DNA from: an uncultured virus (IMG/VR IMGVR_UViG_3300011258_000941)
Taxonomy: Duplodnaviria > Heunggongvirae > Uroviricota > Caudoviricetes
IMG/VR virus record: IMGVR_UViG_3300011258_000941
Direction: 5' to 3' (one strand)
DNA: 64,000 nucleotides
Below the pieces are notes generated by a model, which searched no databases, was not told the DNA's origin, and saw only the letters and a program-made list of their open reading frames with translations. Shown in pieces: positions 6,129 to 33,998 of the stretch. The translations under genes and the position numbers were made by a program. Numbering within the stretch: the stretch's first letter is position 1; each line of letters starts with the position of its first letter.

Positions 6129-7616
6129 ATGAGTCAAATAAAACAAGCGTTGGCCTTTGAGCGAGCAAGAACAGATGTTTCGTACTTTTATCGTTGGCTT
6201 GGTTATTCTTGGGGCGACCACATAGGCGAATGGATGAACATTTACAGTGATAGGAAAGGTAGCCATGTTCACCGCGTTTGTATTATTGCTCCGAGAAGTC
6301 ATTCAAAGAGTACGACGCTTGGAGTAAAACTGTTGCATATGTGCTTGTTCCAAAAGTTTAACGGTAAACCTATGGACATTTGGTTGTTTTCAGCGAGTCA
6401 AGATACGGCAGTAAGACGATTAGCCGAAATTAGAAAGGATTTAACAACACACAAGGAGTTGGCTCGGTACATTGACCCTAAGAAGGGTGGTAAGCGAGAG
6501 TTATGGTTGAACAACGGAGCAGTTATTCGCTGTTCTTCTGTTGGCTCCGCAATTCGTGGCGACCATCCTGCGGTTGTTGCTCTTGACGATGTGTTACTTG
6601 ACGCAAAAAAAGAATTAAATAATGAACAGTTAAGACATTGGTTGCGTAAAGTTGTTATGCCGATGCTTGACCCCGGCGCGTTTTTGTATTGTGTTGGTAC
6701 TCCAATGAGTATGGCGGATTTGTACCACACTGAAATGCTTGAAAATTCACAATGGAAAACGGGCGTTTGGTCTGCTATTCCCAATTGGGATGAAAATAAA
6801 CATGAGCCGGAAAAGTTAAAGGCGTTATGGCCGGAGTTTAGACCAATTGACTTTCTTTTAGAGCAAAAGAAAGTTACAGGTGACTTAGAGTTTGCACAAG
6901 AGTTTTTGTGTAAAGTTATTGACGATGAGGCGGCAGTGTACCCTCGCAAGTTTACACGAGCGAATATGGACTTAGAGCAGGTGTTTGACAAAGAAAAGCG
7001 TGAAGGTTGCCGATATGTGGTTGGGTTTGACCCATCACAAGGATTGGGTAAGGACTATTCCGTATTAGTTTTGGTTAGGCAAGAATCCGATGGTTCGTTG
7101 GTAGTAGCAAATGTATGGCGACGAAATGACTTTTCCCCCGATAGACAGGCTGACATGATAGGAGAATGGTGTAAAAAGTTTAGCGCACCTTTGGCGGCGG
7201 AAGATGTAGGATTTCAACGACTGTTCAAGAGTTTACTTGAGGCTAAAGGTATCAATGTTGAATATCGGGAATCAAGAGTAAGCAACAAGGGATTGAAGCA
7301 AGGATTGTTAAATCGGCTAAGAGTTTGGTTTGAACGAGGCAAAATTCAATTCCCCTATGGTAGCGACAGCACACGAAGGGTTATCAATGAAATGCTTGAA
7401 GAATTAGAAAGCCATGCTTGGAAATCCGGCGACATTGTAGATACGGGCAAACATAATGATTTGGTCATGGCGTTGGCTCATGCGATTGACCAATTTAGCC
7501 ACAACAAGGGAAGCGGTGTGTGGGCATCCGCAAGAACCGAAATGGGTGATTGGCTCGGAGGAAGAAGTAAATCTAAGGGCGGAAGTAAAATGTTCCGAAG
7601 TGTAAGGCGACGATGA
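6129..7616 (+). CDS. terL: Terminase large subunit
   Basis: Walker A-like APRSHSKST, Walker B VVALDD, motif III VGTP, RNase H-like VGFDP...HNDLVMALA. Confidence 0.92.
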   Translation: MSQIKQALAFERARTDVSYFYRWLGYSWGDHIGEWMNIYSDRKGSHVHRVCIIAPRSHSKSTTLGVKLLHMCLFQKFNGKPMDIWLFSASQDTAVRRLAEIRKDLTTHKELARYIDPKKGGKRELWLNNGAVIRCSSVGSAIRGDHPAVVALDDVLLDAKKELNNEQLRHWLRKVVMPMLDPGAFLYCVGTPMSMADLYHTEMLENSQWKTGVWSAIPNWDENKHEPEKLKALWPEFRPIDFLLEQKKVTGDLEFAQEFLCKVIDDEAAVYPRKFTRANMDLEQVFDKEKREGCRYVVGFDPSQGLGKDYSVLVLVRQESDGSLVVANVWRRNDFSPDRQADMIGEWCKKFSAPLAAEDVGFQRLFKSLLEAKGINVEYRESRVSNKGLKQGLLNRLRVWFERGKIQFPYGSDSTRRVINEMLEELESHAWKSGDIVDTGKHNDLVMALAHAIDQFSHNKGSGVWASARTEMGDWLGGRSKSKGGSKMFRSVRRR

Positions 7617-8058: not shown

Positions 8059-9312
8059 TCAAAGTTCGCCGTGGTGCATGGTTTCAACCACGAGGCCGAA
8101 TTGGTCTTCTTTGTGGGTTGCATGAACGCACTCGTACCATGCGGGCTTCAACATGCCCTTGACCTTCACCGTTGAGGTGGTGGTCTTTCCGTTGGCTAAC
8201 TTTCGCTCCATTTGCTTACGGATTGCGACAGGGTAAGTAAGCAACACTTTCAACGCATCCGAAGGGGTGATGAGTCCTTTTGAGGCATCCATCAAGGCGT
8301 TGAATGCTGGCTTCCGAAGGATGAAGGACTTCATCAAAAGGCGGTGTCCTCCGACCATCTTCAAGCCCTCTTGATTTGACTCAATGAAAGGCAGGTGTGC
8401 GGTGTTGGAATTGTAGCCAAGGTTGCGCTTTGGGTTGCCGCACCGTGGGCACCCGTTAGCGGATTGTTGAACGCCGAAGGAGTCACCACATGGGGAGCAA
8501 TATCGGGCGGTCGGGAATACCGATGAACGGAACCATTGAATCAAGGTGTGAACATTCACGGTCAAGTGGCTGTCCTCGCTGTAATTTTCAAGGGTGGCGG
8601 TTCTCAAGGTGTGGCTTGAAACATCAATGAATTGCTTTCCTTCTTCTAGCAAGTCGGCCTTCATGCTACGGAAGGACTCCCTCAACATGGCGTGATTTTC
8701 CACTTCAAAGTAACGAACAGGTGAACCCACTTCAAGGTTGAAAGCGGCGGCGGCGACTGATGGAGTGAGTCGCATGCCTTCGGGTACTTCCTCAATGCTT
8801 TGGCCGGTTCGTTGTTGCATCAATCGGAACGCTTCTTCTCTTTGGGCGGTGCTTGTTTGGTTCCACTCTTGGAAGGCGATGTATGCGGCGGCGGCCCGTT
8901 GGAATTTTTTGGCCGTCTTGGAGTCACCCTTCAACATCTTGGCGATGAGTGGGGAACTCATGAGGATTCGTTGCGGTGGTTGTCCGTCATTGAAGTAGAC
9001 GGACAAATGAGAGACACCGGCGACGGTCAAATCATAGCCCATGATTTTCTTCTCATCGATTTTCATGAATTTAGCCATGCGGCCTAATTCTTGATGCTTG
9101 ACGGCTTCCTTCTTGAAGGTGTAATTTGCCGCCTTCCTTGTGTTGCGGAGGGTGTTCGTGTTGAACACATATCCTTCCTCAGTGGTAAGGAATGCAAGCA
9201 AGGTTTCAATCATGCTTGCGATGATGCCTCTCATCATTGTTTCATTGTCTCCTTCCGTGTCTCCACCGAAGGGGGCCGTCCCGTTAGGGTTGGGGGTTAT
9301 GTCGTCGGACAT
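8059..9312 (-). CDS. Hypothetical protein with CxxC...CxxC Zn finger (putative pre-early)
   Basis: Long ORF, higher GC than flanks, CSPC...CPRC; TTATATAC at 9341-9334 points to leaderless ATG 9312. Confidence 0.8.
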   Translation of the reverse strand: MSDDITPNPNGTAPFGGDTEGDNETMMRGIIASMIETLLAFLTTEEGYVFNTNTLRNTRKAANYTFKKEAVKHQELGRMAKFMKIDEKKIMGYDLTVAGVSHLSVYFNDGQPPQRILMSSPLIAKMLKGDSKTAKKFQRAAAAYIAFQEWNQTSTAQREEAFRLMQQRTGQSIEEVPEGMRLTPSVAAAAFNLEVGSPVRYFEVENHAMLRESFRSMKADLLEEGKQFIDVSSHTLRTATLENYSEDSHLTVNVHTLIQWFRSSVFPTARYCSPCGDSFGVQQSANGCPRCGNPKRNLGYNSNTAHLPFIESNQEGLKMVGGHRLLMKSFILRKPAFNALMDASKGLITPSDALKVLLTYPVAIRKQMERKLANGKTTTSTVKVKGMLKPAWYECVHATHKEDQFGLVVETMHHGEL

Positions 9313-9693
9313 ATTGCTTCGCACTTTTTTCAAGTATATAATTCGTTTAGGCGGTTTTCCATGAAACGGGCTGTTTTTGGTATTTTTTAGGCGGCGCGAT
9401 GTCGTTTTTTACCATCATTTTCCGTCCTCCGCTAATTTATGTTATTTTTTGAATCGTCTGGGTTTTCGGTGTATTTTCTACACCTATCATGAACGGGTCG
9501 ATTTTGACCCTATCATGAACGGTTTCATTTTGATACTAAGTGCGGAAAGTAAATTCCATTTAGTCGCGACTAAATTATCAGTCCTTGGATTTTTTTAGTC
9601 GGTCTTTTTAGTCGGAAAAAAAAAGATTTAGTCGGAAATGTTACCGAAAAAAAAAGCATTTTTTTAGTCGGAGTTACCGAAATTTAGTCGGGG

Positions 9694-9726
9694 GCATCCA
9701 CCCCCCGCCAAGGCGGGAGGCGGTGC
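9694..9726 (-). terminator. GC hairpin downstream of ORF 9780-10148
   Basis: Minus strand GCACCGCCTCCCGC-CTTG-GCGGGGGGTGGATGC. Confidence 0.6.
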
Positions 9727-9779
9727 GCTGTTCAAGATTGTGTTCAATCTTGGGTTGGTGAAAAATCGACGGAGCGGCG

Positions 9780-10148
9780 TTATTCCCACGCTTCCCAGTC
9801 ACACGAGGCCAATTCAGCCGACAATTCAAGGGCGGCATCGGCTTGGCGTTCTGCTTCTGCTTCTGCTTGCATCTCTCCTTCACATGAGCCGTCATCCTCG
9901 TCGATTTTTGCGGCTTGGATTTTGTCGGCCACGGTGAACACAGGGTTCACAATTTCTTCAACGCTGAAAGCCGTGTAAGCATCCCGAAGGGTAGCCATGA
10001 CTTCTTTCAAGGCGGGTTCATCGTGTCCTTGTCTGTCCTCTAATTCGTTGCGGAACTCATTCAAGCGGAGTATTGCTACCTCAAGGCATTGTCGGGTCAC
10101 GGAGGATTCTTCCTCAATAGGGCCGGTTTCGGTTGGGTTTTGTCCCAT
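9780..10148 (-). CDS. Acidic hypothetical protein (122 aa)
   Basis: D/E-rich; own promoter (motif 10190-10197, TATA 10171-10177) and hairpin. Confidence 0.75.
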   Translation of the reverse strand: MGQNPTETGPIEEESSVTRQCLEVAILRLNEFRNELEDRQGHDEPALKEVMATLRDAYTAFSVEEIVNPVFTVADKIQAAKIDEDDGSCEGEMQAEAEAERQADAALELSAELASCDWEAWE

Positions 10149-10170
10149 GATTTATTGTAGGGCTAACAGG

Positions 10171-10198
10171 TATATAACAGGTATTACGGCGACTAAAC
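10171..10198 (-). promoter_or_regulatory. Early promoter GTTTAGTCG-N12-TTATA
   Basis: Motif and TATA start 20 bp apart; ATG 29 nt after TATA start. Confidence 0.8.
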
Positions 10199-10472
10199 AG
10201 GAATCCGACTAAGCGGATTTAGTCGGAAGGGGGTAAGTATAATCTGTTAGTCGCGACTAACTGATAGGGTCTGCGTGGTGCGTTTAGTCGGAATTTTTAG
10301 GCGCGCCTAATTTTACCCCTACTTTTCGTGAAAGTTATTTAGTCGGATTATTTAGTCGTTAGTCGGGGCAGTTTAGTCGGACTTTTTTAGTCGGAAAAAA
10401 GAAAAATTAGTCGGAAAAATTACCTAAAGAAAAAAATAAATTTAGTCGGAAATTACCGAGTTTAGTCGGGAG

Positions 10473-10504
10473 GCCGCCGCGCCCTCCGAGGAAGGCGGGG
10501 CGGC
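10473..10504 (-). terminator. GC hairpin downstream of ORF 10559-10795
   Basis: Minus strand GCCGCCCCGCCTTC-CTCG-GAGGGCGCGGCGGC. Confidence 0.6.
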
Positions 10505-10558
10505 GTTGGTACGAGCCGTGACCGTTCGCAATTTTTGTGTCTAACAGTGGGAATAAGT

Positions 10559-10795
10559 TTAGTCGTCCGTTGGGTCGATAAGGTAGTTGTCAATCAGTAC
10601 CGCTGTAAGGGCGGGCCACTTAATTGCGAACTCCAAAGGGTTGCGTTGTAGCATGCGGAATTGTCGCATAGCGTAACCTTCCCGAAGGTTTTCTTCATCA
10701 GCCGCAATTTGAACGAAGGTGTCCCCGTCCGTCCATGTTGCAGTTTCGTACAGTGCTTTGTACGCCGCCGTTATTTCTTCTTCTTGTATTTTCAT
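10559..10795 (-). CDS. Hypothetical protein (78 aa)
   Basis: GAGGTGA RBS, promoter at 10829-10856; the stop codon lies inside a CGACTAAA motif. Confidence 0.75.
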   Translation of the reverse strand: MKIQEEEITAAYKALYETATWTDGDTFVQIAADEENLREGYAMRQFRMLQRNPLEFAIKWPALTAVLIDNYLIDPTDD

Positions 10796-10828
10796 CTTTT
10801 CACCTCAATATATCGTAGGGGGTGCTGG

Positions 10829-10856
10829 TATATAAGGCTGTCTACGCCGACTAAAC
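10829..10856 (-). promoter_or_regulatory. Early promoter GTTTAGTCG-N12-TTATA
   Basis: CGACTAAA 10848-10855, TATATAA 10829-10835. Confidence 0.8.
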
Positions 10857-11871
10857 GGGCATTTTCAATTTGTATTATTATTTAGTCGTGACTAATTAGG
10901 CGGGAATAGTTAGCGTTATTTTTATTATTTAGTCGGAATTGGGTGTTTTAGGGCGTTTAGTCGCGACTAATTTATGGGGTCGCAGTGTAGCGTTTAGTCG
11001 GAATTTTTTGGAAAAGTGTCGCGAGTGTAGCATATGAGGGGGATGAGATTTTTTTACGACTAAACAAGAGTAGGTCGTCACTTTTTTAGTCGGGGGCGAC
11101 CGACTAAAGTATCATAGCGCAGTCACGCGTTTAGTCGGAATTTTTTAGGAGGGTGTGTTTATGGGGGGTAGGAAGGAAATGGGTTTTAAATCCCGACTAA
11201 AAGGGGTACTGCAAGGCTGTTATTTAGTCGCGACTAGATGCACGAAAAAACCATATTCCGACTAAAACCCACCGACTAAAAAACAGGGCCACAGTCACGC
11301 GTTTAGTCGCAAAAAAATTTCAAAATCCTCGGAGTCTATGATAGATGAAAATGCGAAAAAAAATACGACTAAACGATGGACTGCAAGCATGGTTTTTAGT
11401 CGCGACTAGACGAGTGTTTTTGGCCTGTTCCGACTAAATCCATATAGGCCACCCACAAAACTGCGAGTCCGACTAAACAGTGGCTAAGTTTTCTAATCCC
11501 TTTTCGTACCGACTAAAAATATCTTGTCACCCATAATTTTTTAGGCGCGCCTAAACTTTTGCCCAAATTCCACCATCCAAAAAAAACTATTGACTACAAT
11601 AAATTCAGCCCCGACTAAATAAACCACCACCCTTCCGATTTTGGCGATTCCATCCCCTTTATTTAGTCGCACCTAAATTTGGCGTGGCGGGGGCCGGTTT
11701 AGTCGCTCCGTTTTAGTCGGCTTCGCCGCCCGTTTAGTCGCTCCATTTTAGTCGTCAAAAATCAAATTTAGTCGGTACGAAATCCCGACTCGGTTTAGTC
11801 GCTATCCCCCGTTTTAGTCGCATTCCTGTATCGCGCCCTTTTTTATTATAAGTATGACACGCAAGATGAGC

Positions 11872-11900
11872 GTTTAGTCGGCATAGAAAGGCTTATATAC
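11872..11900 (+). promoter_or_regulatory. Early promoter GTTTAGTCG-N12-TTATA
   Basis: Motif 11873, TTATATAC 11893; heads the rightward early genes. Confidence 0.85.
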
Positions 11901-11943
11901 TAGTAAGAATATGTATAAATAGAGCCGAAGGAGGCCAACAACA

Positions 11944-12090
11944 ATGATGCGAAACAAAGACGATATGATAACGATGAAGGGCGTGGCCTGTGACAAGTGC
12001 GGATGCAAAAAATTCCGTCCACTTGCTTCCGGCTCAAATGGAAACTGTGTCCACTGTGGCCGTTTCACCATCCTATGGAGTGCTTACTGA
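11944..12090 (+). CDS. Zn-ribbon microprotein (48 aa)
   Basis: GGAGG RBS; CDKC...CVHC. Confidence 0.65.
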   Translation: MMRNKDDMITMKGVACDKCGCKKFRPLASGSNGNCVHCGRFTILWSAY

Positions 12091-12211
12091 TGACTTGCTG
12101 TGAACCAATCCAAATTTTGACCTGCTCGGAACGCTCCGCCGTTCTCTTGTGTGCCGATTGCCGAAACCTACGGTTGAAAGTCCGAGTCCAAAAAGCGTTG
12201 GAGGCATCCGC

Positions 12212-12463
12212 ATGAGCCGAAGTGTTCACTGTGGAATTTGCATTGGGTGGTTTCGTCCCGTCCCGTCCGATGAGGACGAAGGCCAAAATTCCGACCCCAT
12301 AGCGTTCTCAAAACGCCCCTGTGAATACCCGTCATGCGAAAAATGGCGGGCAGGTCAAAGACACATTATACACACCGACCACACGATACCCCTGCCGCAT
12401 GGGACTCATCTTGAAGTGTGTGGCGATTGCTACTTGAAATTTCATGGGGTGTTTGAAGAATGA
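12212..12463 (+). CDS. Zn-finger protein, paralog of 13193-13378
   Basis: RPCEYPSC...HTDHTIPL...LEVCGDCY. Confidence 0.7.
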   Translation: MSRSVHCGICIGWFRPVPSDEDEGQNSDPIAFSKRPCEYPSCEKWRAGQRHIIHTDHTIPLPHGTHLEVCGDCYLKFHGVFEE

Positions 12464-12717
12464 GTAGTCACTTTCACGAATGCCCTATCTGTCAAAAATC
12501 CATATTGGATGCGGCAAACCTACATTATCACATGAAATTTTGTAGGAAGAAAAAATTCCAAAATATCGTTGATGCGGTCGTTTCTTTTGACTTAGCAATA
12601 AGTCAATGCGCCGAAGCCCCTTATCTGTTTGAAGACACCGACATCATACACATGAACACGGCAAAAATCTCAAACATTCTCATCCAAATCCAAAGGAGGC
12701 TTGAAAAATATGACTGA
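12460..12717 (+). CDS. C2H2-like Zn-finger protein
   Basis: CPIC...LHYHMKFC; ATGA coupling. Confidence 0.65.
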   Translation: MSSHFHECPICQKSILDAANLHYHMKFCRKKKFQNIVDAVVSFDLAISQCAEAPYLFEDTDIIHMNTAKISNILIQIQRRLEKYD

Positions 12718-12916
12718 ATGGGTTTCATATCCGAACCCCGACGCAGGTTTGAAATCCGCCTGTCGTCGTTTCCGCATCCGACCCTATGATACTTATCGCG
12801 GTCGCTTTTATGCGCTGATAGACTATGGGCATGAAGGTTACGACCGAAATTGGCCGCTTGACACGACTCATTCCACGATTGAAGAAGCGCAAATCGTCGC
12901 TGAAAGGAGGAATTGA
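12710..12916 (+). CDS. Hypothetical protein
   Basis: GGAGG RBS, coupled in operon. Confidence 0.6.
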   Translation: MTEWVSYPNPDAGLKSACRRFRIRPYDTYRGRFYALIDYGHEGYDRNWPLDTTHSTIEEAQIVAERRN

Positions 12917-12917
12917 A

Positions 12918-13196
12918 ATGAATGAAAAAACAAAAATGCACCCACGAAACCCAAAAATTAGACCGCCCGAAGGCCGACAAGAAATTACAGGCGAAGTCAT
13001 CACCATTCACGAACATGATGGGATTTACAATGGCTTGAATGTGATTTTAAAATGTGAAGGTTATCGTTTGTGGGGTAACCTTCCGAGAAAAATGAAGGCT
13101 AAAAAAGGCGAACTCATAACTTTCACGACTACCGTCAGTGTTTGGGGTGTCGGCTATGGCTTTTTCTATAACCCAACAGGAGGGCGAGTCCTATGA
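12918..13196 (+). CDS. Small OB-fold-like protein
   Basis: AGGAGG RBS; EGRQEITGEV...KKGELITFT beta pattern. Confidence 0.55.
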   Translation: MNEKTKMHPRNPKIRPPEGRQEITGEVITIHEHDGIYNGLNVILKCEGYRLWGNLPRKMKAKKGELITFTTTVSVWGVGYGFFYNPTGGRVL

Positions 13197-13378
13197 GCCA
13201 CGAAAAATACATAGGTCACTCAGCCAACCGACCTTGCGAATATCCATCATGCACAGTCGCCATTTACGGAAGAAGGTTCGTCATCCACAGTGACCACACC
13301 CTCCCTCTCACGCAAGGCACCCGCCTTGAAGTGTGTAGCAATTGTTACTCAAAGTTCTTCGGGGTGTTTGAAAAATGA
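13193..13378 (+). CDS. Zn-finger protein, paralog of 12212-12463
   Basis: RPCEYPSC...HSDHTLPL...LEVCSNCY. Confidence 0.7.
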   Translation: MSHEKYIGHSANRPCEYPSCTVAIYGRRFVIHSDHTLPLTQGTRLEVCSNCYSKFFGVFEK

Positions 13379-13815
13379 GCCACGATAAGTATTACCGAAA
13401 ATATGACCGAAAAAACGATTGGGCGGTTGATGAAGCACCGATTCCATGCCCATTTGGAACGACGCTCAAAAATCCACCCGTTGCTTTCCATGTGATTCTT
13501 CACCCGTTCAAAAGCGAATATCATTGGTCGCCCGATTGGAATTTTGTCGCCATGTATTTTTCATCATCACACGACCCCGCCGATTTATCCGACATTGAAC
13601 ACGCCAATATGAATGGATATGAAATGAAAATTCTCTATGAAATGGAAAATATCACGCCTAAAATATCGTACCGATTTGAACGGCTTGAAGGTACTTCCAT
13701 AGCAACGCGATATTGGCCGATTGCTCAAGGGGTAAAGCACCACAGGGGAAGCCTTGATGGTATCGCTATGACTCTAACGGGAAAACTAAGAAAAATGGTG
13801 GTTGATTTACAATGA
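13375..13815 (+). CDS. Hypothetical protein
   Basis: ATGA-coupled ORF. Confidence 0.65.
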   Translation: MSHDKYYRKYDRKNDWAVDEAPIPCPFGTTLKNPPVAFHVILHPFKSEYHWSPDWNFVAMYFSSSHDPADLSDIEHANMNGYEMKILYEMENITPKISYRFERLEGTSIATRYWPIAQGVKHHRGSLDGIAMTLTGKLRKMVVDLQ

Positions 13816-13994
13816 AAATCCGATGCGAAAAATGTCATGGCTATGGCCTCTTTGGTGGTCAAACCATCCATTCAAGAAATTTTACGGCAATAGTAATTTG
13901 CATAAAATGTCGGGAAGAGATGTGTGTGTTTAGTCGCCAACAAAAGACTTATAAACCTGCTCGTTCTAACAATAAACAGGAGAGGAAAAAATGA
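13812..13994 (+). CDS. Zn-ribbon microprotein
   Basis: CEKC...CIKC. Confidence 0.55.
   Translation: MKIRCEKCHGYGLFGGQTIHSRNFTAIVICIKCREEMCVFSRQQKTYKPARSNNKQERKK
13928..13956 (+). promoter_or_regulatory. Early promoter GTTTAGTCG-N12-TTATA
   Basis: Motif 13929, TTATAAA 13949. Confidence 0.8.
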
Positions 13995-14377
13995 AAACTA
14001 ACAAACAATACCGCAATAGCAAGCCAAATCAAGAAAAATGTATTTGTTGCTTCCGATGGCTTCCCAAATCAAGAATGCGAACTGTTTTCGGCGGGGGGTG
14101 GAAATGCAACCCGAAGGGTGGCTACAAAAATGCGATTGAATGCCTTCATCTTGATAATGACCAAATACACGGAATTGGTGCTTATCATAAACACGGCGGA
14201 AGTCTAAATTGGATTAAGCCGAAGGATAGAAAGTCTTTCGGATGGAAGGAAATTGAGAAGGCCGACCGATGGTTGCTTGAAGGTGAAATATCCGTGGAAG
14301 ACCACAAAAAAACCGTTTGGTATGTCCGTGAAGAAATCGCGCTTGTTGAAAAAGAAATGCAGGAGGATTCACAATGA
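13991..14377 (+). CDS. Hypothetical Cys-containing protein
   Basis: GAGG RBS downstream of a promoter. Confidence 0.7.
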   Translation: MKTNKQYRNSKPNQEKCICCFRWLPKSRMRTVFGGGWKCNPKGGYKNAIECLHLDNDQIHGIGAYHKHGGSLNWIKPKDRKSFGWKEIEKADRWLLEGEISVEDHKKTVWYVREEIALVEKEMQEDSQ

Positions 14378-14519
14378 CTGAAAAACCAAAAATGAACATC
14401 GTCCAACACCGCTTTTCATGCGGAAAATCCGTCAAGGGTATGCTCAAAATCCGACACGAAAAAGGCAAGGCTAATACTTTTGACCCAAAACTATTCCGAG
14501 AAAAATTGGAGGGGTCACA

Positions 14520-15050
14520 ATGACTGACGCAAGGAAAAAAAGCATCAAGGGTTCAAATAACTCCGAAAATCCGAATCAAAATATATGCGCTCGTGCCGTT
14601 GCGTACGCGCTTGATGTTGATAAGGAAGTGCGATATTTGCACACGCTCAACGATTTAATCAAGGCGGCTCGTAAAAAATGGACGGTACGCTCACGATTCA
14701 GCCTTTGGAATAAACATTTCAAAAATATACCCCTCACGGTGAATCAATTTATCAAAATGGTTCCCACCTTCACGATGAAATCCAATTCCCAAACTTCTTT
14801 TACCGAAAAAGAATTTTACGACCCCGACGAAAAAAGAAATTGGATAGAGTCAAAAACCTCATCACTTCGCACCCGCGCATATATCATTTATGTGAAGGGT
14901 CATGTCATGCTTATATCAAGCGACGGTACGGTTCACACCGACACCGCCCCCAAAGAAAACGCCGACCGCCGACAAATCAAAGCGATTTATGCGGTTGGTC
15001 ACTTAGATTCACACACAACGACCGAATGGGCCGACGAGGTGCAACAATAA
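14520..15050 (+). CDS. Hypothetical protein, possible papain-like Cys-His-Asp fold
   Basis: NICARAVA...YVKGHVML...HTDT. Confidence 0.55.
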   Translation: MTDARKKSIKGSNNSENPNQNICARAVAYALDVDKEVRYLHTLNDLIKAARKKWTVRSRFSLWNKHFKNIPLTVNQFIKMVPTFTMKSNSQTSFTEKEFYDPDEKRNWIESKTSSLRTRAYIIYVKGHVMLISSDGTVHTDTAPKENADRRQIKAIYAVGHLDSHTTTEWADEVQQ

Positions 15051-15063
15051 AAACGGTGTGTGT

Positions 15064-15092
15064 GTTTAGTCGCCACCGAAAGGCTTATATAC
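15064..15092 (+). promoter_or_regulatory. Early promoter GTTTAGTCG-N12-TTATA
   Basis: Motif 15065, TTATATAC 15085. Confidence 0.85.
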
Positions 15093-15157: not shown

Positions 15158-15412
15158 ATGAAACAGGAAATAAACATTGGAGAAAAAACATACGCAATAG
15201 ATTACAGTATGGGCATGGAAGATTTATGCACAGACTGTTATGAGTATGATAGAAAATACTTTATCGGAAGCGTGGGCAACCTGCGGGTTTACCGCTTGTG
15301 CGCCCATGATTGCTACTTGGTTGAAAATTACTTTACCGATAGGAGTTATACAGAAGGAATTGCAGGTTATCCATACGAATGCGATTATGCCCATGAAGAG
15401 GTGAGCCAATGA
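15158..15412 (+). CDS. Hypothetical protein
   Basis: AGGAGG RBS. Confidence 0.7.
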   Translation: MKQEINIGEKTYAIDYSMGMEDLCTDCYEYDRKYFIGSVGNLRVYRLCAHDCYLVENYFTDRSYTEGIAGYPYECDYAHEEVSQ

Positions 15413-15981
15413 AAATCAAAACGACAGAAGAAATTGCACATAAAATATACGGCTTGAACGACCAACCAAGCGTGTATGTTGCCTGTCTCGGTTGCTACAA
15501 CGAAGGCCGACTTCATGGTAAATGGATGGATGCCGACGAATTGGAACAAAGATGGGAGTCTCCCCGACATTGGGATTCAAGCACAGGTTTGTCCCAATGC
15601 AAAAAACCGCACCACGATGAATGGGCGATTCACGATTATGACGGCGTTCCAAATTTGGGCGAGCATCCCGACATTCCGTATCTCATCAAGGTCATGCAAG
15701 CCGTTGAAGAACACGGCGAGCCGTTTCTTGAATGGTTCAACCTTGACCCTCACAACAAATCCCACCACGACGATTTGGGCGACGCGTTTGAAGAGGCGTA
15801 TGCCGGAGACTACGAATCAAAAGAAGAATTTGCGGAAGAATTTGCCGAAAGTTGCGGCTACATTGACTCCGCTTCAACCAATCCTCTTTGGCGATATATT
15901 GACTTTGAATGGTTTTGGAATGCCGAATTGAGGTATTCACACCACTATTCCAACGGTCATGTCTTTAGGAGTGATATTTGA
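15409..15981 (+). CDS. ardA: ArdA antirestriction protein (DNA mimic)
   Basis: VYVACLGCYNEGRLHGKWMD, EWAIHDYD, YAGDYESKEEFAEE, RYIDFE; strongly acidic. Confidence 0.9.
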   Translation: MKIKTTEEIAHKIYGLNDQPSVYVACLGCYNEGRLHGKWMDADELEQRWESPRHWDSSTGLSQCKKPHHDEWAIHDYDGVPNLGEHPDIPYLIKVMQAVEEHGEPFLEWFNLDPHNKSHHDDLGDAFEEAYAGDYESKEEFAEEFAESCGYIDSASTNPLWRYIDFEWFWNAELRYSHHYSNGHVFRSDI

Positions 15982-17265: not shown

Positions 17266-17294
17266 GTTTAGTCGCTACCGGAATCTTTATATAC
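17266..17294 (+). promoter_or_regulatory. Early promoter GTTTAGTCG-N12-TTATA
   Basis: Motif 17267, TTATATAC 17287. Confidence 0.85.
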
Positions 17295-24446: not shown

Positions 24447-25777
24447 CAAAAATTATTGACCGACTTATTTCTTTCGCAAAAGCAAATCACTATGTTGATG
24501 TTGAAGACAAAATCCCAATCTTTGCTTGTTCCATCGGAGCGCACATCTTTAACGCTATCAACAAATGTAGCCGGTGCGACTTTGACCCACTACACAACGC
24601 CGATTTCAATATCCCAAACTGCCCGCTACGACATAACTTCCCGCCCATCTACACCCCAATGTCACAATTGGCTGACACGAGGGTACATATTCTCATGCGT
24701 GGAGAAAAGGGTTCCGGTAAAAGTATGTTAATCAATATGTTTCTTTCCGAAGGCACAGGCATTCTTTACAGTCCAACGGCCTTCAACGAAGGCAACGGAT
24801 TCCGAACCATGCTTGGCCCTAACTCCATCACAGAAGCCGGTATGTTCGGGTCTGTTGATGAAGACGGTAACATAATGGGTCGCCCTCTCGCTCGTGATAT
24901 GTGCGGAGGATTTCTCGGCTTTGAGGAATCATCTTCTCTCACCGATGCAAACAAGAAAGACCACAGTACGGATATGAAAAACCAATTGCTCACTTCCCTT
25001 GACAACGGGCGCGTACAGAAAGCCATGCGAAGTGGGTGGGTACAATACAATACCCGTTATACTATGTGGGGCGGTACTCAACCTTCTCGTCTTGAAATGG
25101 AATCCGGTCTTGACCGTCGCCTGTTCATCATTGATATTGAAATGTCCCTTGAGAAAGAAGCACTTTACAAGGAGGCACAACACAAACAATCCAACATGAC
25201 TCGTGAAGAACGAGCCTTGCTCGCAAGCGAAGTCATCAACATTCGCTCTTGGATTAACACGCGAATGCTTGAAGCAATCTTTGACCCGCCAAGTGGTGTT
25301 CAATTCTCCGATGAATTGGGTGCGTGGCTTTCCCGTCCCGACCTCCGTTCTTTTGAGGTTGATTTATTCCGTCGCCTCGCCATAGGGTATGCTATGCTTA
25401 CCGATGAATGGGTAGGTAATACAGTGCTAAAAATAACTCTTGATGAGAAACTACTCGGCCTTCTTGAATCCGCTTTGATGATGCGTCGTTCCGTCATGGA
25501 CTCCGATGCTCGGCTCATCAAGGAAGCGTTTTGGATGCAAGACATAACCAAGTCCACCTTGCTAAAAGAAATCGCTCGTATCATTACTGCCGGAGATTAC
25601 ACGGCGGCAAAACGGTGGATTGATGATAACCTCGTCGGTCAATCGTGGTACTGTGAATATACTCCTAAAAGTAAGGGTCGTGGGCGGAAGGGTGTTATGT
25701 GCCGAATCGGAACCTTAACAGACCCAAACCAAGTGAAACAAAAGTGGGGTGAATCCGATGAAGAAACAAATGGTTGA
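24434..25777 (+). CDS. MCM-like AAA+ replicative helicase (short)
   Basis: VHILMRGEKGSGKS, SITEAGMFGSV, GGFLGFEE, LLTSLDNG, GLDRR. Confidence 0.75.
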   Translation: MARLTKIIDRLISFAKANHYVDVEDKIPIFACSIGAHIFNAINKCSRCDFDPLHNADFNIPNCPLRHNFPPIYTPMSQLADTRVHILMRGEKGSGKSMLINMFLSEGTGILYSPTAFNEGNGFRTMLGPNSITEAGMFGSVDEDGNIMGRPLARDMCGGFLGFEESSSLTDANKKDHSTDMKNQLLTSLDNGRVQKAMRSGWVQYNTRYTMWGGTQPSRLEMESGLDRRLFIIDIEMSLEKEALYKEAQHKQSNMTREERALLASEVINIRSWINTRMLEAIFDPPSGVQFSDELGAWLSRPDLRSFEVDLFRRLAIGYAMLTDEWVGNTVLKITLDEKLLGLLESALMMRRSVMDSDARLIKEAFWMQDITKSTLLKEIARIITAGDYTAAKRWIDDNLVGQSWYCEYTPKSKGRGRKGVMCRIGTLTDPNQVKQKWGESDEETNG

Positions 25778-26579
25778 TTTATTCTGTGGTGCAGGGGGAG
25801 TTACGGAAGGGGCTTTGCGGGCAGGTTTTGAAATAGTGCTTGCTATGGACAAGTGGCCCGAAGCGATACAAACATACCGATTAAACCACCCCGAAATAGA
25901 AACCTACTGCTTTGATTTGGACACATCGCCATCCATTGTGGCTCAAATGATTACTCCTTATCTTGACGACGACGCTCACTTTCACCTTCATGGTTCCCCA
26001 CCATGTCAAGCACTTTCAAACGCTTCATGGAACACCGAACCCGAAAATGGTCTTCGTATGGTCGTGTGGTTTTACGAATTGGTTGATATATTGAAACCGG
26101 ATTCATTTTCAATGGAAAGTGTTTGGGGAGTAAAGCCTTTCTTGGAAGAAAACAATAAGCGTTATAGTTTTGTGAACAGTGCTGATTACGGAGTACCCCA
26201 ACGAAGGAGAAGAATTTTTGCCGGTGAAGGTTGGAAACTTCACCCCTCCCATATGGGGCATTGGGTTTCAACGGCTGACGCATTACCTCACCATGAAGGC
26301 AAAGACTTCACTCCCGTTGAGTGTATGAAGAAACGATGGAAGATGACCATAAATGACCCGTACCCAACAATAACAACAAAAATACGAAGTCAAATTAAAA
26401 TTGGCGGCAAAACATTATCGCATAAGGATTTGGTCACGCTTCAAGGTTGGGAAGGTTTTATTTGGGATAAAAATACTAACCTTCTTGACATTGAGGTAAT
26501 GATTGGTAATATGGTCAATCCCCCTATCATTGAGAATATGCTAACCAATTTAGAACCAACAAATTACGAATGGGTGTGA
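25758..26579 (+). CDS. C5-cytosine DNA methyltransferase
   Basis: DLFCGAGG, GSPPCQ, MESV (ENV variant), YGVPQRRRRIF, IGNMV. Confidence 0.9.
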   Translation: MKKQMVDLFCGAGGVTEGALRAGFEIVLAMDKWPEAIQTYRLNHPEIETYCFDLDTSPSIVAQMITPYLDDDAHFHLHGSPPCQALSNASWNTEPENGLRMVVWFYELVDILKPDSFSMESVWGVKPFLEENNKRYSFVNSADYGVPQRRRRIFAGEGWKLHPSHMGHWVSTADALPHHEGKDFTPVECMKKRWKMTINDPYPTITTKIRSQIKIGGKTLSHKDLVTLQGWEGFIWDKNTNLLDIEVMIGNMVNPPIIENMLTNLEPTNYEWV

Positions 26580-28365: not shown

Positions 28366-28767
28366 ATGAGCGCAACGAACAGTCGTATTCGGCGCGCTAT
28401 CCTTGACCTTTTGTGGGAGCATGGGCCGATGACCAAAGAAGAGGTTGCCGCTTGTCTTGGACAACATCGTGGTGTCGCACATATTCCTTCCCCGCATTCC
28501 CTATCGGCTCTATTGTGTAAATCTCACTCAATTATTGTTATCGGAAAAAAACAAGTGGAGAACATCGTCGGAGCGAAATCTAAACACGCTCTTTACGACA
28601 TTGACCGAGAGGTTGTTTTACACAAATCCGAAATCAAATACATTCGTGAACCTTCAACCATGACACCAAAAGAAAAAACTCTTTCTCTTAAATGTGAATG
28701 TGGGCGCACACGCATTTTCCCACCCAACAGTGATGAATGTTTGTCATGCGCCCGAACAGGCGTTTAG
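28366..28767 (+). CDS. Winged-helix regulator with C-terminal Zn ribbon
   Basis: AILDLLWEHGPMTKEEVA; CECG...CLSC. Confidence 0.75.
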   Translation: MSATNSRIRRAILDLLWEHGPMTKEEVAACLGQHRGVAHIPSPHSLSALLCKSHSIIVIGKKQVENIVGAKSKHALYDIDREVVLHKSEIKYIREPSTMTPKEKTLSLKCECGRTRIFPPNSDECLSCARTGV

Positions 28768-28790
28768 TCGCTACCGGAACCTTTATAAGC
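28762..28790 (+). promoter_or_regulatory. Promoter GTTTAGTCG-N12-TTATA
   Basis: Motif 28763, TTATAAG 28783. Confidence 0.8.
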
Positions 28791-28824: not shown

Positions 28825-29049
28825 ATGCGAGCGAAAACAGTACCCCATGTTGAATACGAAGTTTTGAAGGAAGTGTTGAATAACATTCCTTTGGAAGACC
28901 TACACGATGCTATGGTGGCTGACGAGACAAGCGAGAAGAGATTCAGTACCGGCGCAGGAAATGTAGCCAAACTGATTCGTAACCTTATGGTTCGTCGCCA
29001 ACACCGCTTGCCTCACGACCACGCCGAATACAAAGCAAAGGAGGAATGA
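28825..29049 (+). CDS. Hypothetical protein
   Basis: First gene after the motif promoter. Confidence 0.7.
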   Translation: MRAKTVPHVEYEVLKEVLNNIPLEDLHDAMVADETSEKRFSTGAGNVAKLIRNLMVRRQHRLPHDHAEYKAKEE

Positions 29050-33964: not shown

Positions 33965-33998
33965 GAACCCTTATAAGGCTACAAAAGGAGACAATAAT

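What the first reader, a model, noticed from the sequence alone, without database searches (positions are those of the whole stretch)
9558..11880. About 50-copy TTTAGTCG binding-site platform in the divergent control region
Seen: 52 exact TTAGTCG/CGACTAA 7-mers in 2.3 kb, against a handful in the other 60 kb. They are separated by non-repetitive, often A/T-tract spacers. Orientation runs in blocks: mostly forward to about 11140, mostly reverse 11190-11620, forward again 11660-11880. The region sits where early transcription diverges and next to terL. It is not a CRISPR array or a simple tandem repeat. Inference: a high-occupancy nucleoprotein platform for one sequence-specific protein, the same one that marks the early promoters. 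Possible roles are an enhancer/sponge that captures a host or virion-borne activator on entry, a ratchet for DNA injection at the genome end, a parS-like centromere, or an iteron origin/pac region. I know of no description of such a system in archaeal tailed viruses.
Basis: partly seen in the sequence, partly recalled or inferred. Interest (0 to 1): 0.9.

Follow-up and report, generated by a model that had tools for sequence, protein, structure and literature searches.

The report
Virus-private DNA word array at early control region
An ocean virus of archaea carries about fifty copies of one seven-letter DNA word packed beside its earliest genes, the same word sits in front of every early promoter, and related viruses keep the same structure but each uses a word of its own, which points to an undescribed virus-encoded recognition system.

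Summary
In detail: 52 of the window's 63 exact TTAGTCG/CGACTAA words lie in 9560-11880 (5.7 expected in the whole window). The region is three site clusters separated by two small leftward genes, each with its own promoter and hairpin. The word also sits 11-12 nt upstream of the TATA box at eight places (0 expected), seven of them in front of early genes. Independent assemblies reproduce the region. In 34 of 39 related viral loci a comparable array lies downstream of terL, but the word is lineage-specific: TTAGTCG, TTAGACG, TTAGCCG, ATAGTCG, TTTGTAAC and others. It differs even between viruses whose terL is 92-96% identical. In every lineage checked, the array word is also the promoter word. 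Words are 97-100% conserved against 66-89% for spacers, and spacing follows fixed classes (7, 14, 20, 30, 63 nt). This argues against a conserved host factor and for a virus-encoded, co-evolving reader. My best reading (0.45) is an immunity-like early-transcription control hub; an iteron origin (0.25) and a packaging or entry signal (0.1) remain open. The hypervariable zinc-ribbon protein gene that always flanks the array (8059-9312) is the positional candidate. I found no published description.

The parts
6129..7616 (+). terL (large terminase); anchor used to find related loci
   Evidence: Pfam Terminase_6C E=6e-8 and Terminase_6N. 452 relatives in viral contigs.
8059..9312 (-). P0003: 417-aa hypervariable protein with a CxxC...CxxC zinc ribbon. 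It always flanks the array and is the positional candidate for the word reader.
   Evidence: No Pfam, PHROG or NCBIfam hit. Homologs are 24-40% identical in viruses with terL 86-96% identical. 46 of 53 sources have an ORF of at least 250 aa at this position. Tree. C-terminal domain model pLDDT 90.3, without a fold match.
9335..9353 (-). P0003 promoter: TTATATA box with a variant word (TTAGGCG, inverted) 5 nt upstream, where a BRE would sit
   Evidence: The same design is seen with a one-mismatch word in relative L116.
9483..9534 (.). 26-nt direct repeat x2 between the palindrome and the P0003 promoter. Its sequence is lineage-specific.
   Evidence: L116 has a different 22-nt x2 repeat at the same place.
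9558..9690 (.). Site cluster 1: 7 words including the palindrome TTAGTCG.CGACTAA (9560-9573); 6 forward, with A/T-tract spacers
9688..9779 (-). Two hairpins ending the P0001 unit
   Evidence: RNA fold -35.6 kcal/mol, z -2.87
9780..10148 (-). P0001: 122-aa protein rich in Asp/Glu, embedded in the array
   Evidence: Homologs lie at the same place in 8 related loci. No family hit.
10173..10196 (-). P0001 promoter: word-N12-TTATATA
10190..10468 (.). Site cluster 2: 14 words, including the palindrome 10247-10260 and the composite unit 10247-10290
10466..10558 (-). GC-rich hairpin ending the P0002 unit
   Evidence: RNA fold -34 kcal/mol, z -2.29
10559..10795 (-). P0002: 78-aa protein embedded in the array
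   Evidence: Homologs in 4 related loci.
10831..10854 (-). P0002 promoter: word-N11-TTATATA, the mirror image of the rightward promoter at 11874
   Evidence: (inverted repeat I3)
10848..11880 (.). Site cluster 3: about 1 kb without a gene and with 30 words. Composite units [palindrome]-N23-[word]-A/T tract occur in both orientations (10957-11000, 11101-11137, 11194-11237, 11273-11309, 11366-11409). Pairs are separated by 56 nt and form dyad units of about 145-170 nt. The cluster ends with 9 forward words.
11874..11897 (+). First rightward early promoter: word-N11-TTATATA
11944..12090 (+). P0004: 48-aa zinc-ribbon protein, the first rightward early gene
   Evidence: Conserved 58-80% in 14 related loci, but its identity does not track the word.
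13930..13953 (+). Dispersed early promoter with the word at N11
15066..15089 (+). Dispersed early promoter with the word at N11, upstream of the operon that holds ArdA (15409-15981)
17268..17291 (+). Dispersed early promoter with the word at N11, upstream of the DUF932 gene
28764..28787 (+). Dispersed early promoter with the word at N11, upstream of the 74-aa gene 28825-29049. The homologous promoter in an ATAGTCG virus carries ATAGTCG.

Best explanation
The array is the cis-acting hub of a virus-private recognition system. An unidentified, virus-encoded, sequence-specific DNA-binding protein reads a 7-8-nt word. In this virus the word is T-TTAGTCG.

The word labels the early promoters at a fixed distance, and so a fixed helical face, upstream of the BRE/TATA. 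About 45 further copies are packed, in a conserved geometry, into the control region where leftward and rightward early transcription diverge.

I read the region as an immunity-like early-transcription control hub. Many cooperatively spaced sites would collect or titrate the regulator next to the promoters it governs. This would set the level and timing of early (anti-defence) gene expression. It would also make the control private to the lineage, so that co-infecting relatives with another word are neither served nor shut off.

Shown here:
- the enrichment and strictness of the word;
- purifying selection on words relative to spacers;
- the spacing rules;
- the link between word and promoters;
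- the family-wide conservation of the array;
- the concerted switch of word in array and promoters between lineages.

Inferred:
- that a protein binds the word;
- that the protein is viral;
- whether it activates or represses;
For: 1. Enrichment: 52 words in 2.3 kb against 5.7 expected in 64 kb. There are 52 exact words against 11 one-mismatch variants.

2. Promoter link: TTAGTCG-N11-12-TTATA occurs 8 times against 0 expected. Seven of these lie 28-75 nt upstream of ORF starts in 9.3-29 kb, including the ArdA and DUF932 operons. Promoters at 33971, 37817 and 42066 lack the word.

3. Selection: aligned words are 97-100% identical against 66-89% for spacers in 9 related loci.

3a. Geometry, from the window plus 12 loci: start-to-start distances of 7 (palindrome, 52 cases), 28-31 (96), 62-63 (29), 14, 20 and 28. 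There are 60 composite units CGACTAA-N23-TTAGTCG in two mirror classes. There are 32 convergent pairs with a 55-57-nt spacer.

4. Family-wide: 34 of 39 loci with at least 3.5 kb downstream of terL hold a 7-mer in 15 or more copies. None of 46 upstream controls does (largest 12).

5. Private words: TTAGTCG, TTAGACG, TTAGCCG, ATAGTCG, TTAGTCA, TTTGTAAC, TTTTGTCC, TTTGTAGC and TTTTGGCC. They differ even where terL is 92-96% identical.

6. Array word equals promoter word in each lineage checked: TTAGACG-N22 x2, ATAGTCG-N22 x3, TTAGCCG-N22 x2, GTTACAAA-N9 x2 in each of two loci, GCTACAAA-N6 x3. N11 and N22 differ by one helical turn.

7. The TTAGACG and ATAGTCG arrays keep the 7, 29-30 and 63 spacing classes.

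8. Precedent: early and anti-defence genes of other archaeal viruses share virus-specific regulatory sequences around a strong promoter, ascribed to virus-encoded regulators (PMC11065993, passages read).

9. P0003 flanks the array in 46 of 53 sources. It is hypervariable. Its supported clades each carry one word. Its own promoter has a variant word at the BRE position.
Against: - The octamer TTTAGTCG occurs with three deeply different P0003 clades, so the match between clade and word may be shared ancestry only.
- A word centred near -45, upstream of the BRE, is where archaeal activators usually sit (recalled). A virus-encoded activator of the very first promoters needs either delivery in the virion or a basal start.
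- About 44 words have no TATA box behind them. The dyad units with A/T-rich flanks look as much like an origin as like operators.
- Most words in clusters 1 and 2 point against the local leftward transcription.
- There are no transcript, terminus or replication data: all 21 listed runs were kept as contigs.
- The host test was incomplete. Only the 16-nt palindrome was scanned in genomes, and no Poseidoniales genome could be reached.
Confidence: 0.45

Rival explanations
1. Replication origin. The words are iterons for a virus-encoded initiator (possibly P0003). The dyad units with A/T-rich flanks are the melting or loading sites. The promoter-proximal copies couple early transcription to initiation, as viral initiators that double as transcription regulators do.
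For: - The cluster is large, in both orientations, and lies in about 1 kb of gene-free DNA, with dyad units [palindrome]-N23-[word]-N56-[word]-N23-[palindrome] and A/T tracts beside the words.
- The site spacings of 30 and 63 nt are close to whole numbers of helical turns.
- A hypervariable gene always sits next to the array, with a variant word on its own promoter. This is the classic rep-iteron layout.
- Lineage-specific words are what initiator-iteron pairs show.
- The virus encodes its own replication proteins: PolB, an RFC-like ATPase, and a 447-aa ATPase with a faint P4-primase C-terminal hit.
- Weak, non-significant fold rows for P0003 are dominated by MCM N-terminal and SSB OB folds.
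- From recall: euryarchaeal oriC regions hold many short ORB boxes, and EBV oriP has a family of repeats plus a dyad element.
Against: - The fixed, helix-phased position of the word upstream of TATA at seven or more dispersed promoters is not needed for an origin.
- No long A/T-rich unwinding stretch stands out. The 55-57-nt spacers are 43-73% A+T.
- The cumulative GC skew turns near 2 kb and 45 kb, where the gene strand changes, not at the array.
- The fold hints are far below significance.
- There are several dyad units in tandem rather than one.
Confidence: 0.25
2. Packaging or entry signal. The array is the recognition region (pac/cosB-like) for a small-terminase-like protein, possibly P0003, or the leading-end structure that holds or paces the DNA during ejection.
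For: - The array lies 1.9 kb from terL, with only P0003 between.
- No small terminase was recognised among the ORFs around terL.
- Recognition subunits and their sites differ between close relatives in lambdoid phages (recalled).
- The genes next to the array are typical first-entry genes such as ArdA and DUF932.
- In T5-like phages a large untranslated region beside the pre-early genes, full of repeats and palindromes with 8 DnaA boxes, is the proposed injection stop signal (bioRxiv 10.1101/866236, abstract read).
Against: - The promoter-linked copies up to 17 kb away are unexplained.
- Two long relatives are collinear with the window but circularly permuted, with contig ends in the early genes and not in the array.
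- Contig ends are not concentrated downstream of terL more than upstream: 61 against 58 of 80 loci end within 8 kb.
- P0003 (417 aa) has no terminase family hit.
Confidence: 0.1
3. Host-factor enhancer or sponge. The word is the site of a host transcription factor or chromatin protein that the virus recruits to its early promoters and soaks up with the array.
For: - Early promoters must fire before any viral protein is made.
- The word lies where upstream activating sites lie.
- A host activator of viral promoters is known in Sulfolobus (Sta1, recalled).
Against: - Words differ by single bases between viruses with terL 92-96% identical, and array and promoters switch together. A host factor with many genomic targets should not change this fast.
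- Some genomes carry a second, interleaved word differing at position 5.
- The 16-nt palindrome was found in 59 loci of genome contigs, all bacterial by title and none archaeal.
Confidence: 0.07
4. No platform at all. The copies are debris or linkers left by repeated recombination and duplication at the shared early-promoter element, as in PeSL-like cassette shuffling.
For: - The leftward units are promoter-gene-hairpin cassettes.
- In three of the four laid runs (X1, X2, X5) a variant joins the promoter at 13953 to the one near 15090, deleting the genes between.
- Cluster 1 and 2 words are often followed by TTACCGA-like remnants of the promoter's BRE region.
- Earlier notes of this scan describe cassette shuffling at promoter-linked palindromes in other magroviruses.
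Against: - Words are kept at 97-100% while spacers drift.
- Spacing classes and composite units are conserved in divergent relatives and across word switches.
- Arrays of 15-87 copies are kept in 34 of 39 loci.
Confidence: 0.06

Closest known systems
Consensus early/anti-defence-gene regulatory sequences of archaeal viruses (SIRV2 and others; PMC11065993, passages read)
   Same: Several early genes of one virus share a virus-specific conserved sequence around a strong BRE/TATA core. A virus-encoded regulator (Aca8-like) is proposed. Anti-defence genes lie downstream; here that is ArdA.
   Different: Those motifs occur once per promoter. Here about 44 further copies without a promoter form a structured 2.3-kb array. 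The element lies upstream of the BRE at a helix-phased distance. The host is a marine Poseidoniales-type archaeon and the virus is tailed.
Intergenic repeats of halovirus HF2 and its complex bidirectional promoter region (PMC8707807; abstract and section 3.7 read)
   Same: It is an archaeal tailed virus. Repeated intergenic sequences carry promoters and are conserved in place and orientation among relatives. A bidirectional promoter region holds three 12-bp direct repeats.
   Different: HF2 repeats are 58- or 29-bp whole promoter modules, present in about a dozen copies and dispersed. No dense array of a short word and no lineage-specific switching of a word are reported there.
Stoperators and immunity repressor of Cluster A mycobacteriophages (PMC6550527, passages read; PMC9283540, listing only)
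   Same: A strict, asymmetric, virus-private site occurs in tens of copies. One copy is a true operator at the early promoter. Site consensus and repressor differ between subclusters and decide homo- or hetero-immunity.
   Different: Stoperators are 13 bp, spread over the whole genome and oriented with transcription. Here the copies are clustered in one region, many point against local transcription, and there are palindromes and dyad units.
Injection stop signal region of T5-like phages (bioRxiv 10.1101/866236, abstract read)
   Same: [quoted passage not shown]
   Different: There the boxes are 8 DnaA boxes for a host protein and are the same in all relatives. Here there are about 50 boxes and the word is private to each lineage.
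EBV oriP (family of repeats plus dyad-symmetry element, bound by EBNA1); lambdoid immunity, ori-O and cosB-Nu1 specificity modules
   Same: A virus-encoded reader has tens of sites, split into direct-repeat blocks and dyad elements, and acts as enhancer and origin. Protein and sites co-vary between otherwise similar viruses.
   Different: There is no sequence or fold relation, function here is untested, and the domain of life differs.
Promoter-palindrome-hairpin gene cassettes noted in other magroviruses by this scan (PeSL-like)
   Same: Small accessory genes are promoter-gene-hairpin units with one shared signal, and units are lost at that signal.
   Different: Those notes describe one palindrome per cassette joint (another word, CCATATGG), not a 50-copy array.

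Membership tests
Shared early-gene regulatory sequence of archaeal viruses (PMC11065993) | Several genes of one virus preceded by the same conserved sequence around a BRE/TATA core | tested here: met
   8 matches of TTAGTCG-N11-12-TTATA against 0 expected. Seven lie in front of ORFs.
Shared early-gene regulatory sequence of archaeal viruses (PMC11065993) | Genes behind it are early or anti-defence genes | tested here: inconclusive
   ArdA (E=4.5e-27) and DUF932 lie in such operons. Timing of expression is not known.
Shared early-gene regulatory sequence of archaeal viruses (PMC11065993) | Bound by a virus-encoded regulator | not testable with these tools
   Only indirect evidence: the word switches between lineages in array and promoters together.
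Iteron-type replication origin | Repeated binding sites for an initiator next to its gene | tested here: inconclusive
   The repeats and an always-adjacent hypervariable gene are present. The gene has no initiator family or fold match.
Iteron-type replication origin | A/T-rich unwinding element; replication starts there | tested here: inconclusive
   Short A/T tracts flank the words. Spacers are 43-73% A+T. GC skew does not turn at the array. The replication start is not testable here.
Stoperator/immunity system (Cluster A mycobacteriophages) | Tens of strict asymmetric sites with a lineage-specific consensus, one at the early promoter | tested here: met
Stoperator/immunity system (Cluster A mycobacteriophages) | Sites dispersed through the genome and oriented with transcription | tested here: not met
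   52 of 63 sites lie in 2.3 kb. Most words in clusters 1 and 2 point against the leftward genes.
parS-type centromere | Partner partition genes (ParA/ParB or equivalents) in the element | tested here: not met
   No such family appeared among 66 ORFs scanned with Pfam. About 3 kb of the genome lies outside the window.
pac/cos terminase recognition region | Near the terminase genes and bound by the small subunit; genome ends generated there | tested here: inconclusive
   The array is 1.9 kb from terL. No small terminase was recognised. Ends are not testable, because all runs are contigs. Permuted contigs do not end in the array.
CRISPR array / simple tandem repeat | Regular repeat-spacer period | tested here: not met
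   No periodic array was found by Tandem Repeats Finder. Distances between sites are variable.

The most novel reading that the evidence does not exclude
A whole family of abundant marine archaeal tailed viruses uses a private-word self-recognition code. Each lineage owns a 7-8-nt word, read by its own allele of a fast-evolving zinc-ribbon protein of unknown fold (the P0003 family).

The word tags all early promoters on one helical face and is amplified to 20-90 copies in a structured hub next to that gene. The hub would work as a titration timer for the early (anti-defence) burst. It would also act as an exclusion or incompatibility device against co-infecting relatives, and perhaps as the origin too. 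That makes it an archaeal counterpart of phage immunity groups, in viruses thought to be purely lytic.
Probability: 0.3. Interest if true: 0.85.

Novelty: new variant of a known kind. Interest (0 to 1): 0.72.

Why it matters
Magrovirus-like viruses are among the most abundant viruses of the surface ocean, yet nothing is known of how they control their genes. Three things follow from this finding.

- It gives a sequence rule that finds their early promoters (word-N-TATA), and so their early and anti-defence genes, in any related contig.
- It shows that a large, structured control region is conserved across the family, while its word switches between near-identical genomes. That is the signature of competition between co-infecting relatives: immunity, incompatibility or private packaging.
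- It names a concrete pair to test, the P0003 alleles against cognate and non-cognate words. A hit would define a new DNA-reading protein family and a set of orthogonal protein-site pairs for archaeal genetics.

Tried and rejected
1. Whole-genome context. The window's own assembly is not held. The nearest record, G001, is a 9.5-kb fragment with one word.

2. The phage collection gave no match to 9300-12100 in blastn 'distant' mode.

3. Host test. The genome search would not take a taxon name and I had no Poseidoniales handle. The single genome-contig scan, with the 16-nt palindrome, gave 59 loci, all bacterial by title. Fourteen of them came from one unrelated MAG. So word usage at host promoters remains untested.

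4. Termini, depth and RNA. All 21 listed runs are Logan contigs, so read laying could show only continuity and variants, not molecule ends ('places where many molecules begin or end: none', which says nothing for contigs). A depth step in X2 (about 37 against 23) is absent in X1, and I do not interpret it.

5. P0003 function.
- No Pfam, PHROG or NCBIfam hit, and no usable ESM Atlas hit.
- The recurring MCM-N and SSB rows are leads only.

6. P0004 as reader. Its identity to homologs (58-80% in 14 loci) does not follow the word, and it was not found in ATAGTCG or TTTGTAAC loci.

7. The wHTH protein 28366-28767 as reader. It is 66-72% identical in four genomes, including an ATAGTCG virus, which neither supports nor excludes it. 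It was not found in G009, G010, G012 or G013, which are fragments.

8. The 447-aa ATPase had no PDB sequence match.

9. Rfam and tRNA scans of the region were empty.

10. The population variants seen in the array (12 places) avoid the words, but with about 1.9 hits expected by chance this is not significant.

11. Earlier notes of this scan gave nothing for this place or this sequence.


Full report
WHAT IS THERE

The window is a magrovirus-like archaeal tailed virus. It encodes a portal, terL, tail tube and tape-measure proteins, PolB, an RFC-like ATPase, a chaperonin, ArdA, DUF932 and several DNA methylases.

The heptamer TTAGTCG and its complement occur 63 times against 5.7 expected. Of these, 52 lie between 9560 and 11880. 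The word is strict: 52 exact copies stand against 11 one-mismatch variants in the array, seven of which are the single variant TTAGGCG. The context is T-TTAGTCG-[G/C]-[A/G]-A, commonly followed by an A/T tract.

The region is not a periodic repeat and matches no RNA family or tRNA. It is also not a misassembly. A 5,550-nt contig of run X1 covers 9158-14708 with 4 differences and one gap, and a run from another study covers it in two contigs.

ANATOMY

The 2.3 kb is modular. Reading leftward from the centre, three units each consist of a site cluster, a TATA promoter, a gene and (for the two small genes) strong hairpins:
- P0002, 78 aa, 10795-10559;
- P0001, 122 aa, 10148-9780;
- P0003, 417 aa, 9312-8059.

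The rightward early operon starts at 11944 behind the mirror-image promoter (inverted repeat I3). Between the two innermost promoters lies about 1 kb without a gene, holding 30 words.

Distances between neighbouring words fall in classes. The count covers the window plus 12 related loci. These are 12 of the 17 array-bearing contigs; I left out five that had the same site counts as ones already used. The classes are:
- 7 nt, the abutting palindrome TTAGTCG.CGACTAA (52 cases);
- 28-31 nt for divergent pairs (96 cases);
- 62-63 nt for convergent pairs (29 cases);
- 14, 20 and 28 nt for direct pairs.

The 30-nt pairs belong to a composite unit: [palindrome]-N11-GCAGT-N7-[word]-A/T tract. It occurs in both orientations, 60 instances in all. 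Two units facing each other across a 55-57-nt spacer (32 instances) form dyad units of about 145-170 nt. In one relative these units repeat in tandem every 145-151 nt.

THE PROMOTER LINK

TTAGTCG-N11-12-TTATA occurs eight times in the window against none in 100 shuffles. Seven of these lie just upstream of ORFs between 9.3 and 29 kb. They include the three promoters inside the array and the operons with ArdA and DUF932. TATA-type promoters further on, at 33971, 37817 and 42066, lack the word.

In relative G002 the same promoters carry two words 12 nt apart, followed by N11-TTATATA. The word is therefore a class-specific element centred near -45, upstream of the BRE. The P0003 promoter is different: a variant word in the opposite orientation lies 5 nt from its TATA box, and relative L116 has the same design.

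RELATIVES

A scan for the 15-nt palindrome found 43 loci on 30 viral contigs. Seventeen of these contigs hold 35-65 words within 2-5 kb, with the same order of P0003-type gene, clusters, small genes and early operon.

Two long relatives (68.6 and 59.8 kb) are collinear with the window but circularly permuted. Their contig ends fall in the early genes, not in the array.

In alignable stretches of nine relatives the words are 97-100% identical, against 66-89% for spacers and 73-87% for the embedded genes. One caveat applies: words help to seed such alignments.

THE KEY RESULT

Using a terL alignment I fetched the best 80 of 452 related loci. Of 39 loci that hold at least 3.5 kb downstream of terL, 34 have one 7-mer in 15-65 copies within 6 kb. 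The five exceptions are L174, L190, L193, L196 and L200. None of 46 upstream control stretches reaches 15; the largest count is 12.

The word, however, depends on the lineage:
- TTAGTCG, with a lineage-specific base in front (T, C, A or G);
- TTAGACG;
- TTAGCCG;
- ATAGTCG(C);
- TTAGTCA;
- TTTGTAAC, up to 87 copies;
- TTTTGTCC;
- TTTGTAGC;
- TTTTGGCC.

Viruses with GTTAGTCG, CTTAGTCG, GTTAGACG and GTTAGCCG have terL proteins 92-96% identical to one another. The TTAGACG and ATAGTCG arrays keep the 7, 29-30 and 63 spacing classes.

In every lineage I checked, the array word is also the word upstream of TATA boxes outside or at the edge of the array:
- TTAGACG-N22, twice;
- ATAGTCG-N22, three times, one at the promoter homologous to window 28764;
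- TTAGCCG-N22, twice;
- GTTACAAA-N9, twice in each of two loci;
- GCTACAAA-N6, three times.

N11 and N22 differ by one helical turn, so the word keeps its face relative to the TATA box. Some genomes carry a second, interleaved word that differs at position 5:
- TTAGGCG in the window, 9 copies;
- ATAGGCG in L152, 9 copies;
- TTAGCCG beside TTAGACG in L138, 18 against 37 copies.

WHAT THIS MEANS

Tens of sites plus the dispersed promoter sites change together between near-identical viruses. That is the behaviour of a virus-encoded reader co-evolving with its sites, as in phage immunity, initiator-iteron or terminase-cos pairs. A conserved host factor would not behave this way. The 16-nt palindrome is also absent from archaeal genome contigs: the 59 loci found are all bacterial by title. 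I could not scan Poseidoniales genomes for the short word.

The helix-phased position in front of the BRE/TATA argues for a direct role in transcription initiation. I therefore rank an immunity-like early-control hub first (0.45).

The dyad units, the gene-free kilobase and the rep-like position of P0003 keep an origin reading alive (0.25). The two readings are not exclusive.

Packaging or entry (0.1), a host-factor sponge (0.07) and recombination debris (0.06) follow. For the last, a deletion variant joining the promoters at 13953 and about 15090 does exist in three of the four laid runs (X1, X2, X5). So the shared promoter element is recombinogenic. But the conservation of words and geometry argues that the array itself is functional.

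P0003 is the only gene found beside the array throughout. In 46 of 53 sources an ORF of at least 250 aa lies on the opposite strand within 1.5 kb of terL. The seven without one are L170, L174, L190, L192, L196, L200 and L201.

P0003 is exceptionally variable, 24-40% identical where terL is 86-96% identical. In all four runs laid, its gene is broken into short variant contigs.

In a maximum-likelihood tree of the 46 ORFs (34 distinct) each supported clade carries one word. TTTAGTCG, however, occurs in three separate clades, and kinship alone can produce such a pattern.

P0003 has a conserved CxxC...CxxC motif and several invariant arginines. Neither the full model (pLDDT 76.7) nor the confident C-terminal domain model (pLDDT 90.3) matches a solved fold. 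P0004 does not track the word, and the wHTH protein 28366-28767 gives no evidence either way.

LITERATURE

Term searches found no mention of repeats, promoters or motifs:
- in Philosof et al. 2017 (PMC5434244: 'repeat' 0, 'promoter' 0, 'motif' 0, 'intergenic' 0);
- in PMC10160649;
- of promoter, intergenic or non-coding elements in PMC11706807.

The other magrovirus papers I saw only as a listing, and supplements were not read.

The nearest published concepts are these:
- the virus-specific consensus regulatory sequences of early anti-defence genes in crenarchaeal viruses (PMC11065993);
- the promoter-carrying intergenic repeats of halovirus HF2 (PMC8707807);
- stoperators (PMC6550527);
- the T5 injection-stop region (bioRxiv 10.1101/866236, abstract).

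None of them describes a dense array of about 50 copies of a private word in an archaeal tailed virus.

VERDICT

The interpretation as a one-protein platform that also marks early promoters is supported indirectly. The host-factor version is disfavoured. Function and reader remain open.

Noticed in passing
window 13953 to about 15090: In runs X1, X2 and X5 a contig variant leaves the promoter at 13930-13953 and continues with the sequence that follows the promoter at 15066-15089. This deletes the genes between (13991-15050). It looks like recombination between two copies of the early-promoter element.
   Followed up: partly
window 8076-9158 (inside P0003): In all four runs laid, this gene is assembled only as short contigs (146-394 nt) with many differences, while the flanks are in long contigs. 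This means strong population microdiversity in exactly the gene that is hypervariable between relatives.
   Followed up: partly
window 9483-9534; L116 541-584: A direct repeat x2 (26 nt here; 22 nt and a different sequence in the relative) sits between the palindrome and the P0003 promoter. It may be a second, allele-specific operator.
   Followed up: partly
window 11944-12090: The first rightward early gene encodes a 48-aa basic zinc-ribbon protein. It has a sub-threshold hit to the TFIIB-like Rrn7 zinc ribbon (E=0.005, 16.8 bits against a cutoff of 27.1). It could touch the transcription machinery.
   Followed up: partly
window 9780-10148 and 10559-10795: The two genes embedded in the array encode small proteins visibly rich in Asp/Glu and have no family hit. 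By placement they may be very early, DNA-mimic-like anti-defence proteins. This is untested.
   Followed up: no
[not shown]
   Followed up: yes
L138 11223-13810: One relative interleaves two words, TTAGACG (37 copies) and TTAGCCG (18), in a single array. The window and L152 have a minor G variant at the same position 5. Either there are two readers or that base is read loosely.
   Followed up: partly
L052, L061, L066, L074, L076, L079, L085, L095-L097, L099, L105, L106, L108 (one bacterial MAG): Fourteen of the 59 genome hits to the 16-nt palindrome come from one unrelated uncultured-bacterium MAG, mostly at contig ends. It is probably the end of a repeated mobile element there, with no link to the virus.
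   Followed up: no
window 25749-26579: The C5 cytosine methylase gene has no counterpart in the four relatives that cover this stretch (G002, G003, G007, G011). It is an accessory insertion in the conserved replication block.
   Followed up: no
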